From Dehalococcoidia bacterium (lineage in GTDB: Bacteria; Chloroflexota; Dehalococcoidia; GIF9; AB-539-J10), in the NCBI GenBank assembly GCA_036448835.1, contig JAZFXR010000056.1, forward strand, positions 1 to 30,222: a DNA stretch of 30,222 nt, written 5' to 3'. The translations under genes and the position numbers were made by a program. Numbering within the stretch: position 1 is the stretch's first letter; each line of letters begins with the position of its first letter. The notes beneath the pieces were generated by a model that ran no database searches, was not told the origin of the DNA, and saw only the letters and a program-made list of their open reading frames with translations. Below are positions 22,136 to 23,410 of the stretch, one piece after another.

Positions 22136-23410
22136 CTAACCATCGATGCGTTTAAATACCAGACTGCAATTTTCTCCACCCAGACCAAAACTATTCTTCA
22201 GGCATACATTCACCTGGGTCTGCCGAGGTGTATTGGGCACATAATCCAGATCACAGGCGGGGTCGGGAGTCTGATAATTTATGGTTGGATGAATAATCCC
22301 CTTATTCATTGTTAATATAGCAGCGATGGTCTCAATAGTCCCGGCCGCGGTAATGCAGTGCCCAATCATGGACTTAGTAGTGCTTATTGGGATTTTATAA
22401 GCCTGCTCTCCAAACACCAGTTTAATAGCTTTTGTTTCGGTAACATCATTCAGTTTCGTGCTGGTTCCGTGAGCGTTGATATAGTCAACTTCCTCAATCT
22501 TCACACCGGCATTTTCCAGCGCGGTACGCATAGCATAAGCTTCTGATTCAGGAGCAGGAGCTGTTGCATCGTGAGCATCAAAGGACCAGCCTGCACCGGC
22601 GACTTCGGCCAGGATAAGTGCGCCTCGCCTCTTGGCATGTTCATAGCTTTCCAACACAAGCAGTCCCGCCCCCTCACCATAGACGAAACCATTGCGATTG
22701 AGGTCGAATGGGCGACAAGCCTTGGTTGGGTCCGGTTCATGGGTCAGGGCTCCCAGAATATCTATGCCAGCCATGCCCACTGGTTCCAGACTGGCATCAG
22801 AACCTCCAGCTATCATCACATCTGCATACCCCAAGCGAATGAAATTGGCCGCCGTGCCTATGGCATCAGTGCCGCTGGCACAAAGACTATTTACAGCGTT
22901 GTTAGGACCTTTAGCCCCCAGCATCATCCCTACCTGCATGGATGCCGCACTGGCAGTTGATTTGTTAATGAAAAGTGGGTCGGCACCTCTCCTCGGTCCA
23001 GTTTTCTGGTATTGTTCCCATCCCCAAACAACATAGCCCTGCTCTGTCATAGTAGAAATCGTAACGCCCACTCTTTCAGAGTTTTCCTTAGCCATATCCA
23101 GGCCGGCTGCTTGTACTGCCTCTTTGGTAGCGGCTATGGCAAATTGAATAGTCCTTGAAGTCCGGTCAACTACCTTCAAGCCCATATACTCTGTAGGATC
23201 AAAGCCATGCACCTCAGCATCCACTTTCACCCGAAACTTACTGGCATCAAAATGGGTAATAAGACCGATACCCGACTTTCCGGCGACTAATCCCTCCCAA
23301 AACTCCTTTGTATTCAATCCCAAAGGATTAACAGTCCCCATACCGGTAACTACAACCCTCGGTATTTTTATCGTATTCGCATAGAGTTCAGTATTGTTCA
23401 TTATTCTCAC
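22136..23410 (-). CDS. fabF: beta-ketoacyl-ACP synthase II-like condensing enzyme (divergent)
   Basis: RVVVTGMG, catalytic Cys (SLCASG), His-His ([13 protein letters not shown]), RPFD..GEGAG, NSFGLGG; GTGA overlap with the fabL stop (ATG 23401 alternative). Confidence 0.85.

What the first reader, a model, noticed from the sequence alone, without database searches (positions are those of the whole stretch)
22136..23410. FabF with an intact Cys-His-His triad but a remodelled, polar acyl pocket
Seen versus canonical FabF (by-eye alignment): GSGIGG becomes STMTEQG; PFFVPMMI becomes PLFINKST; TAC becomes SLC; DAYH becomes DAHD; GHLLGA becomes GHCITA; FGFGG becomes FGLGG (the gatekeeper Phe, equivalent to E. 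coli Phe400, is Leu). Known: these segments line the acyl channel and set chain length. Inference: an active condensing enzyme for a short, polar or bulky acyl group, possibly also performing initiation since fabH is absent.
Basis: partly seen in the sequence, partly recalled or inferred. Interest (0 to 1): 0.6.

Follow-up and report, generated by a model that had tools for sequence, protein, structure and literature searches.

The report
Gate-altered FabF paralogue of Dehalococcoidia
The gene is a real, intact fatty-acid chain-building enzyme of the FabF type with unusual, strictly conserved changes at its substrate gates. It is a second copy kept beside a normal FabF in one group of uncultured Dehalococcoidia, not an oddity of this genome, and what it builds is still untested.

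Summary

The protein has a confident FabF fold. It keeps Cys177/His314/His351, Lys346 and the Asp278-Asn414 gate pair.

It belongs to a monophyletic FabF paralogue clade, found in 32 of 401 Dehalococcoidia genomes and in no other Chloroflexota class sampled. The clade sits in a conserved operon: split MaoC dehydratase, plsX, acp, fabL, KS, fabG.

Clade-wide, the gating Phe400 is Leu, Met or Ile and the Ile108/Phe202 back gate is gone. The subclade holding this window adds Leu before the catalytic Cys and His268 to Asp.

It is not the sole FabF. All 12 other genomes of the family, and every carrier checked, also hold a canonical FabF, often next to plsX2-degV-fakA. That copy was not found in this 77%-complete MAG.

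Carriers have FabH as often as non-carriers (3/11 against 42/139), so the idea that it replaces FabH gains no support.

Best reading: it is the condensing enzyme of the operon's own de novo FAS-II and makes long reduced acyl chains handed to PlsX. "Short or polar substrate" is unsupported.

The scan has flagged the same kind of locus in other genomes.

The parts
22136..23410 (-). FabF-type ketosynthase paralogue ('cluster KS'), 424 aa from GTG (421 aa if ATG 23401 is the start)
   Evidence: ORF and translation. PF00109 and PF02801. TIGR03150 scores 493.3 against a cut-off of 493.75; NF005589 scores 473 against 387. AF2 model pLDDT 86.6, TM 0.94 to FabF 4LS8.
23036..23056 (-). STMTEQG (res 119-125), replacing the GSGIGG loop; the Ile108 back-gate residue is lost through a one-residue deletion
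   Evidence: invariant in 121/121 near relatives.
22955..22978 (-). PLFINKST (res 145-152), replacing PFFVPxxI
22880..22888 (-). SLC (res 175-177): catalytic Cys177 preceded by Leu176 instead of Ala162
   Evidence: Leu occupies this position in only 4 of 581 PKS KS motifs counted.
22757..22774 (-). MAGIDI (res 213-218): Ile216 in place of the back-gate residue Phe202
   Evidence: role of the residue from PMC9006962.
22568..22579 (-). DAHD (res 278-281), start of gating loop 2. Asp278 (=Asp265) is kept and His268 becomes Asp281, as in FabB.
   Evidence: PMC9006962.
22454..22471 (-). HGTSTK (res 314-319): catalytic His314; Pro308 becomes Lys319
22346..22363 (-). GHCITA (res 350-355): catalytic His351; LLG becomes xIT
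22169..22189 (-). FGLGGEN (res 408-414), gating loop 1: Phe400 becomes Leu410 and Asn414 (=Asn404) is kept
23407..24174 (-). fabL (enoyl-ACP reductase); its stop overlaps the KS start
   Evidence: NF005975 scores 362.7 against a cut-off of 328.
24176..24421 (-). operon-specific acyl carrier protein (DSL motif present)
24418..25467 (-). plsX (acyl-ACP:phosphate acyltransferase), copy 1
   Evidence: TIGR00182 scores 295 against a cut-off of 243.
25454..26279 (-). pair of MaoC/HadAB-like hot-dog genes (25884-26279 and 25454-25876), the candidate dehydratase
   Evidence: No FabA/FabZ domain was found in the family.
21371..22126 (-). fabG (3-oxoacyl-ACP reductase), 9 nt after the KS stop
   Evidence: TIGR01830 scores 326.7 against a cut-off of 297.75.

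Best explanation
The gene encodes an active Cys-His-His condensing enzyme: a FabF paralogue that arose within Dehalococcoidia. It works as the ketosynthase of a self-contained FAS-II operon made of a split MaoC-type dehydratase, PlsX, a dedicated ACP, FabL, the KS and FabG.

Inferred mechanism: it takes acyl chains from the operon's ACP onto Cys177 and condenses them with malonyl-ACP through His314/His351. FabG, the MaoC pair and FabL reduce the product, and PlsX passes the finished long chains on as acyl-phosphate for phospholipid.

Its front gate (Phe400 to Leu, His268 to Asp) and its back gate (Ile108 deleted, Phe202 to Ile) are rebuilt and then frozen by selection. It therefore probably handles its substrates or its ACP differently from the canonical FabF that every carrier also keeps. 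That second FabF sits with plsX2, degV and fakA, and plausibly elongates salvaged fatty acids.

Shown: identity, fold, conservation, clade, synteny and co-occurrence. Inferred: activity, substrates and the division of labour.
For: - Triad, Lys and the Asp-Asn gate pair are invariant in 22 clade members spanning 51-87% identity.
- FabF fold: TM 0.94, rmsd 1.3 A, 46% identity to B. subtilis FabF.
- Derived residues are fixed in 121/121 near relatives.
- The clade is monophyletic (SH-aLRT 100) and nested among Dehalococcoidia FabFs.
- A clade profile splits cleanly: 34 matches score 684-783 bits and all others 586 or less.
- The order maoN-maoC-plsX-acp-fabL-KS-(fabG) holds in about 50 loci and in distant carriers.
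- The family has no FabZ/FabA domain and no other FabL, so the operon supplies its only candidate dehydratase and enoyl reductase.
- FabD and a carboxyltransferase are present.
- A canonical FabF is retained in all 12 other family genomes and all other carriers checked. In G115 it scores 602 bits on TIGR03150 and lies in plsX2-MBL-degV-fakA-fabF.
- Non-Phe gate residues are common in working PKS KS domains: 405 of 587 counted.
Against: - No biochemical data exist for any member.
- TIGR03150 falls just below its cut-off.
- Two carriers (G043, G071) also have FabH, FabZ and a canonical FabF. There the operon is a second, possibly specialised, system rather than the core one.
- The canonical FabF was not found in this MAG. 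At 76.6% completeness, absence cannot be told from a gap.
- F400V and F400I mutants of E. coli FabF lose condensation activity (PMC9006962).
Confidence: 0.55

Rival explanations
1. Self-priming initiator. Without the Phe400 gate, which normally stops malonyl-ACP from entering before the Cys is acylated, the enzyme mainly decarboxylates malonyl-ACP to acetyl-ACP and makes the first condensations. It would stand in for FabH, and the canonical FabF would do the long-chain work.
For: - No canonical FabH in the four family genomes searched (the own MAG, G054, G115, G132) or in G018, G122, G052, G100 and G014.
- Precedent: P. putida FabB initiates FAS by decarboxylating malonyl-ACP (PMC10869286).
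- Both KS copies are strictly retained in 0.9-1.7 Mb genomes, which fits non-redundant roles.
Against: - FabH over its cut-off occurs in 3 of 11 carriers (G091, G071, G043) against 42 of 139 non-carriers, which is the same rate.
- Dehalococcoides-like genomes have one canonical FabF and neither FabH nor this KS, so FabH-less initiation in the class does not need it.
- The KS is encoded with the elongation enzymes and PlsX, not with FabD.
Confidence: 0.2
2. Specialised-lipid ketosynthase. The rebuilt gates adapt it to an unusual acyl or extender unit that the canonical FabF rejects. The unit could be short, polar, bulky or alpha-branched (methylmalonyl-type). The operon would then make a particular lipid, not bulk fatty acids.
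For: - In PKS KSs that take alpha-branched units the gate Phe is Val or Ile (PMC9006962), and L/M/I/V/A are frequent in PKS KS domains.
- The operon has its own ACP and its own PlsX beside a second ACP and PlsX elsewhere.
- In G043 and G071 it coexists with a complete canonical set.
- A PccB-type carboxyltransferase lies near the operon in G018 and G132.
- A U32-family gene follows the operon in most loci.
Against: - In the family holding this window the operon is the only source found for the dehydratase and enoyl reductase, so it must also serve bulk synthesis if there is any.
- The full KR-DH-ER set plus PlsX predicts ordinary reduced chains.
- No tailoring enzyme is consistently inside the operon.
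- There is only one FabD per genome.
Confidence: 0.15
3. Ordinary redundant FabF isozyme. The differences are lineage drift with no change in function.
For: Public pipelines name it 3-oxoacyl-ACP synthase II. It passes the NF005589 subfamily cut-off. Its best structural matches are all FabF.
Against: - The changed sites are exactly the documented gate residues, and they are invariant within the clade, which is selection and not drift.
- Both copies are kept in every near-complete carrier, even in genomes of about 1 Mb.
- The profile score gap (684 and above against 586 and below) marks a discrete subfamily.
Confidence: 0.1

Closest known systems
FabF / KAS II (E. coli b1095; B. subtilis FabF, PDB 4LS5-4LS8)
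   Same: Thiolase-fold ketosynthase of the same length. 46% identity, TM 0.94. Shares the Cys-His-His triad, Lys335, Thr270, the Asp265-Asn404 pair and a FAS-II operon context. In the tree it nests within FabF sequences.
   Different: Gate Phe400 is Leu. Ile108 is deleted and Phe202 is Ile. Ala162 is Leu, His268 is Asp, Pro308 is Lys. It scores 0.45 bits under the TIGR03150 cut-off. It coexists with a canonical FabF.
FabB / KAS I (E. coli b2323); P. putida FabB as FAS initiator (PMC10869286)
   Same: Asp at position 268 and no Ile at 108, as in FabB (PMC9006962). It is a second elongating KS beside FabF. It offers a possible FabH-independent start.
   Different: Only 35% identical. FabB keeps Phe400 and has Val270. 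FabB falls outside the clade, where it was used as outgroup. NF005935 scores 278 against a cut-off of 630. There is no FabA partner, since no PF07977 domain was found.
Mycobacterial FAS-II (KasA/KasB with HadAB/HadBC, MabA, InhA, AcpM)
   Same: A KS that works with a two-subunit MaoC/hot-dog dehydratase and a dedicated ACP in one operon. The MaoC genes hit the HadA and HadB models weakly.
   Different: NF005916 (KasA/KasB) scores 269 against a cut-off of 560. The reductase is FabL, not InhA. PlsX is in the operon. There is no FAS-I to feed it.
KS domains of modular polyketide synthases with a non-Phe gate
   Same: Leu, Met, Ile, Val or Ala at the loop-1 gate position. In 587 KS motifs counted: F 182, A 181, I 75, V 46, M 45, L 34.
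   Different: The window protein is stand-alone and closest to FabF, in an operon with a full reductive set. Leu before the catalytic Cys is rare in PKS too, at 4 of 581.

Membership tests
FabF / KAS II (TIGR03150 equivalog) | Score at or above the curated equivalog cut-off (493.75 bits) | tested here: not met
   493.3 bits, 0.45 below the cut-off. Canonical copies score 601.9 (G115) and 622.6 (G055).
beta-ketoacyl-ACP synthase II subfamily (NF005589) | Score at or above the subfamily cut-off (387 bits) | tested here: met
   473.4 bits.
Elongating Cys-His-His ketosynthases (FabF/FabB class) | Catalytic Cys163, His303 and His340 plus Lys335 | tested here: met
   Cys177, His314, His351 and Lys346, invariant in 22 clade members and in 121 near relatives.
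Elongating Cys-His-His ketosynthases (FabF/FabB class) | Asp265-Asn404 pair that stabilises the open gate | tested here: met
   Asp278 and Asn414 are invariant. Role from PMC9006962.
Elongating Cys-His-His ketosynthases (FabF/FabB class) | Conserved gating Phe in loop 1 (GFGG, Phe400) | tested here: not met
   Leu410 in 121/121 near relatives. It is L, M or I across the clade, and F only in G091.
FabF / KAS II | [quoted passage not shown] | tested here: not met
   The GIGG loop is replaced by TM-TEQ with a one-residue deletion, and Phe202 is Ile216. Definition from PMC9006962.
FabF / KAS II | His268 and Thr270 in loop 2 (FabB has Asp268 and Val270) | tested here: inconclusive
   Mixed: Asp281 is FabB-like and Thr283 is FabF-like.
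FabF / KAS II | FabF three-dimensional fold | tested here: met
   AF2 pLDDT 86.6, pTM 0.90. All of the top 49 PDB matches are FabF (rank 50 is the human mitochondrial KS), with TM 0.90-0.94.
FabF / KAS II | Elongation of C4-C16 acyl-ACP with malonyl-ACP | not testable with these tools
   Needs an enzyme assay.
FabB / KAS I (NF005935) | Score at or above the equivalog cut-off (630 bits) | tested here: not met
   278.5 bits. It is outside the FabB branch in the tree.
KasA/KasB (NF005916) | Score at or above the equivalog cut-off (560 bits) | tested here: not met
   269.4 bits.
FabH / KAS III | Cys-His-Asn triad and the KAS III fold family (TIGR00747) | tested here: not met
   The protein has Cys-His-His and no KAS III Pfam domain.

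The most novel reading that the evidence does not exclude
The clade is a natural 'gate-less' FabF. Loss of the Phe400 timing gate would let it decarboxylate malonyl-ACP and prime itself. One enzyme would then both start and extend chains, which would explain how FabH-less Dehalococcoidia begin fatty-acid synthesis. It would also supply evolved variants at exactly the gate residues that ketosynthase engineers mutate.
Probability: 0.2. Interest if true: 0.7.

Novelty: new variant of a known kind. Interest (0 to 1): 0.45.

Why it matters
The loop-1 Phe and the Ile108/Phe202 pair are treated as near-universal control points of stand-alone elongating ketosynthases. Here a whole clade has replaced them, kept the replacements fixed, and lives beside a canonical FabF.

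That offers an evolved test case for the gating model and for engineering chain length or extender choice.

It also bears on how small-genome, uncultured Dehalococcoidia build membranes without FabH or FabZ.

If assays show ordinary elongation, the value shrinks to a better annotation rule: public pipelines currently call both paralogues 'synthase II'.

Tried and rejected
1. The exhaustive representative search with the protein returned mostly giant multi-KS polyketide synthases ranked by summed score. It gave no view of the clade's nearest stand-alone relatives. I reused those proteins only to count gate residues.

2. Pocket modelling was not possible. The AF2 model yields no coordinates, so polarity and depth of the acyl channel could not be measured. 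The alignment of the GIGG region is ambiguous by one residue between HMMER and MAFFT.

3. 'Sole housekeeping FabF of the class' is rejected.

4. 'FabH replacement' by co-occurrence shows no signal. Carriers are related, so no statistical test was made.

5. The weak TIGR00747 hits in the family turned out to be 476-aa KASIII/HMGCS-like proteins fused to DUF35 domains, not FabH.

6. Four paper searches on Dehalococcoidia/Dehalococcoides or Chloroflexi fatty-acid synthesis and on the FabF gate found no description of this clade. The library is partial.

7. The second KS of this MAG (contig C61, 36% identity) belongs to a separate KASIII-KS-ACP-oxidoreductase cluster. It is not the canonical FabF.

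Full report
**Observation**

The window holds an uninterrupted ORF at 22136-23410 on the minus strand. The plus strand of the same span is full of stops.
- The longest frame starts at a GTG that overlaps the stop of the upstream fabL gene in a GTGA arrangement.
- An ATG nine bases downstream, preceded by GGAAAG, is an equally good start.
- fabG begins 9 nt after the stop.

Pfam finds both ketoacyl-synthase domains. In NCBIfam the FabF equivalog TIGR03150 scores 493.3 bits against a cut-off of 493.75. The broader synthase-II subfamily NF005589 is passed, 473 against 387.

All six motif changes in the finding are real. They appear in residue-by-residue alignments to B. subtilis FabF and E. coli FabF. 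Their coordinates were verified.
- Phe202 to Ile216
- Pro308 to Lys319
- GGEN followed by Cys after the loop-1 glycines

**What the changed residues are**

A review of stand-alone elongating ketosynthases (PMC9006962) and the gating paper (PMC7138838) give the roles.
- GFGG (399-402) and DAYHMTSPPEN (265-275) are the two front-gate loops.
- Phe400 also times entry of malonyl-ACP.
- Ile108 and Phe202 form a back gate near C7-C8 of the bound chain. Ile108 is described as typical of FabF and replaced by Gly in FabB.
- His268 and Thr270 are typical of FabF; Asp268 and Val270 are typical of FabB.
- Asp265 and Asn404 stabilise the open gate.

The window protein keeps Asp278/Asn414, the triad Cys177/His314/His351 and Lys346. 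It has Leu at 400, no Ile108, Ile at 202, and Asp at 268 with Thr at 270. The finding is therefore better described as 'rebuilt gates' than as a 'polar acyl pocket'. The polarity of the channel could not be measured here.

**A clade, not a one-off**

The closest 120 database clusters, at 82-92% identity and mostly from JGI and ENA metagenomes, carry the same residues without exception. The only variable sites are position 352 and N/T149.

A scan of species-representative genomes returned about 50 Dehalococcoidia MAGs with 71-94% identical copies.

A maximum-likelihood tree of 59 ketosynthases was built with E. coli FabB as outgroup.
- All copies that lie in the same operon context form one clade of 31 rows (SH-aLRT 100).
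- That clade is nested among FabF sequences.
- It is sister to canonical FabFs of other Dehalococcoidia, with support of 96.
- Outgroup sampling is thin, so 'duplication within the class' is consistent with the tree but not proven.

A profile built from 22 members (A1) splits Dehalococcoidia ketosynthases into two score classes.
- 34 matches score 684-783 bits, in 32 of 401 genomes from about 12 families.
- Everything else scores 586 bits or less.
- In a phylum-wide sample of 401 Chloroflexota genomes, the high class appears only in Dehalococcoidia families.

The derived states fall in two tiers.
- Clade-wide: loss of GIGG, PFF to PL(F/L/I), DAYH to DA(Y/H/F)(D/S/N), Pro308 to Lys or Arg, Phe400 to Leu, Met or Ile (Phe only in G091), and GGxNCC.
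- In the subclade at 65% identity or more, which holds this window: Ala162 to Leu, Asp at 268, TM-TEQGY and GGENCC.

**Context**

The order is MaoC-N, MaoC, plsX, acp, fabL, KS, fabG, with a U32-family gene often following.
- It is conserved in nearly all loci long enough to show it.
- It is conserved in the distant carriers G122, G052, G014, G071, G043, G018 and G091.
- fabG is absent from that position in 14 loci.

In the family of this window (f1):
- No FabA/FabZ domain was found in three 96-99% complete genomes, nor in this 77%-complete MAG.
- No canonical FabH was found in these genomes.
- There is one FabD, in a yceD-rpmF-fabD-nusB-acp locus.
- There are two ACPs.
- A PccB-type carboxyltransferase is present.

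Genomes without this KS, including Dehalococcoides-like ones, also lack a FabL orthologue. The operon behaves as a unit. In this family it supplies the only candidate dehydratase and enoyl reductase found.

**Not the sole FabF**

- Every carrier in the first class sample has at least two ketosynthase matches.
- The three near-complete family genomes, plus G018 and G091, each hold a second FabF.
- In G115 the second copy scores 602 bits on TIGR03150. It lies 5 kb downstream in plsX2-MBL-degV-fakA-fabF.
- The same linkage is seen in G132 and G054.
- Five genomes with 80-89% identical copies of the window KS all have the canonical orthologue. So do the same-genus and remaining family genomes.
- In this MAG the canonical copy, plsX2 and fakA were not found. 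At 76.6% completeness this is most simply a gap.
- Dehalococcoides-like genomes have a single canonical FabF scoring 623 bits, and none of FabH, FabZ or FabL.

**Bearing on the interpretation**

Activity is well supported by conservation of the catalytic and gate-pair residues and by the model. The model has pLDDT 86.6, and all of the top 49 PDB matches are FabF at TM 0.90-0.94.

A non-Phe gate is compatible with catalysis. Among 587 KS motifs in large polyketide synthases, 405 have A, I, V, M, L or another residue there. Leu before the Cys is rare, at 4 of 581.

The operon's full reductive set, its ACP and PlsX point to long reduced chains destined for phospholipid. They do not point to a short or polar product. 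This is inference from gene content.

The FabH-replacement idea has a mechanistic rationale in the lost timing gate. It also has a precedent: P. putida FabB initiates fatty-acid synthesis by decarboxylating malonyl-ACP (PMC10869286).
- FabH over its cut-off occurs in 3 of 11 carriers and 42 of 139 non-carriers.
- FabH-less genomes without this KS exist.
- FabZ is rarer in carriers, 2 of 11 against 62 of 139, which fits the MaoC pair doing that step.
- Carriers are related, so these are counts and not tests.

Both ketosynthases are strictly retained in genomes of about 1-1.7 Mb. That argues for non-redundant roles.

From my own knowledge of the Firmicute Fak-PlsX pathway, the neighbours of the canonical copy (plsX2, DegV/FakB, a half-size FakA) suggest that it elongates salvaged fatty acids. 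That would leave de novo synthesis to the operon KS.

**Verdict**

The protein is a new, sharply delimited variant of FabF, not an orthodox FabF equivalog, and it is not a member of the FabB, KasA/B or FabH families.

Earlier notes of this scan describe the same kind of locus in other genomes: e1-5142726, e1-3816087, e1-973127, e1-3621315 and e1-1380791. The scan has therefore met this clade before. Those notes agree with what I found independently. One genome in the 401-genome sample, G249, is marked unpublished. No claim here depends on it.

Noticed in passing
own genome contig C61 (locus L088 474-6097, minus strand): A second, unrelated ketosynthase cluster. It holds a KASIII (NF006720, 449 bits), a KS only 36% identical to the window KS with the gate motif FGMLG, an ACP, two FAD amine-oxidase/CrtI-like genes and a partial SDR at the contig end. 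It may be a polyene-like or desaturated-lipid pathway.
   Followed up: partly
L081 9921-14941 (G115); also L083 and L082: Relatives carry a second plsX, an MBL-fold gene, DegV/FakB, a half-size FakA (Dak2 domain only) and the canonical fabF in one row. This looks like a fatty-acid salvage-and-elongation module. It was not found in this MAG.
   Followed up: partly
genomes G013, G078, G097 (same order, family f2, 98-99% complete): No FabF-like ketosynthase at all at E <= 1e-20, so these relatives may not make fatty acids by FAS-II.
   Followed up: no
genomes G055, G079, G133 (complete 1.4-1.5 Mb, Dehalococcoides-like); L084 7634-8902: A single canonical FabF between mtaB and recJ-plsY. No FabH, FabA/FabZ domain or FabL orthologue was found. 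How these cells start chains and dehydrate them is unexplained.
   Followed up: partly
own genome C133 (L108 1929-3359) and C60 (L109 914-2341): Proteins of about 476 aa that fuse a KASIII/HMG-CoA-synthase-like domain to DUF35-type zinc-ribbon and OB domains. One lies next to an enoyl-CoA hydratase. Similar 470-600 aa frames give weak FabH-model hits in many Dehalococcoidia.
   Followed up: partly
window 19826-20980 (minus): A U32-family gene follows the operon, before rpsL, in most of the roughly 50 related loci. Its orientation is inverted in a few distant ones.
   Followed up: no
own genome C123 (L086 4860-6986); L087 6807-8452: The order yceD-rpmF-fabD-nusB-acp is a remnant of the classic fab locus. 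Its ACP has an insertion after helix II, unlike the operon ACP. In this MAG the contig ends just after nusB.
   Followed up: partly
G151:C18:56080-57316 (genome of locus L005): The canonical fabF reads as two pieces with an in-frame TGA. This may be a frameshift or an assembly error.
   Followed up: no
window 27271-30220 (plus): A mannosyl-3-phosphoglycerate synthase (TIGR02460, 522 bits) is followed by an asparagine-synthase-like gene that scores below its equivalog cut-off.
   Followed up: no
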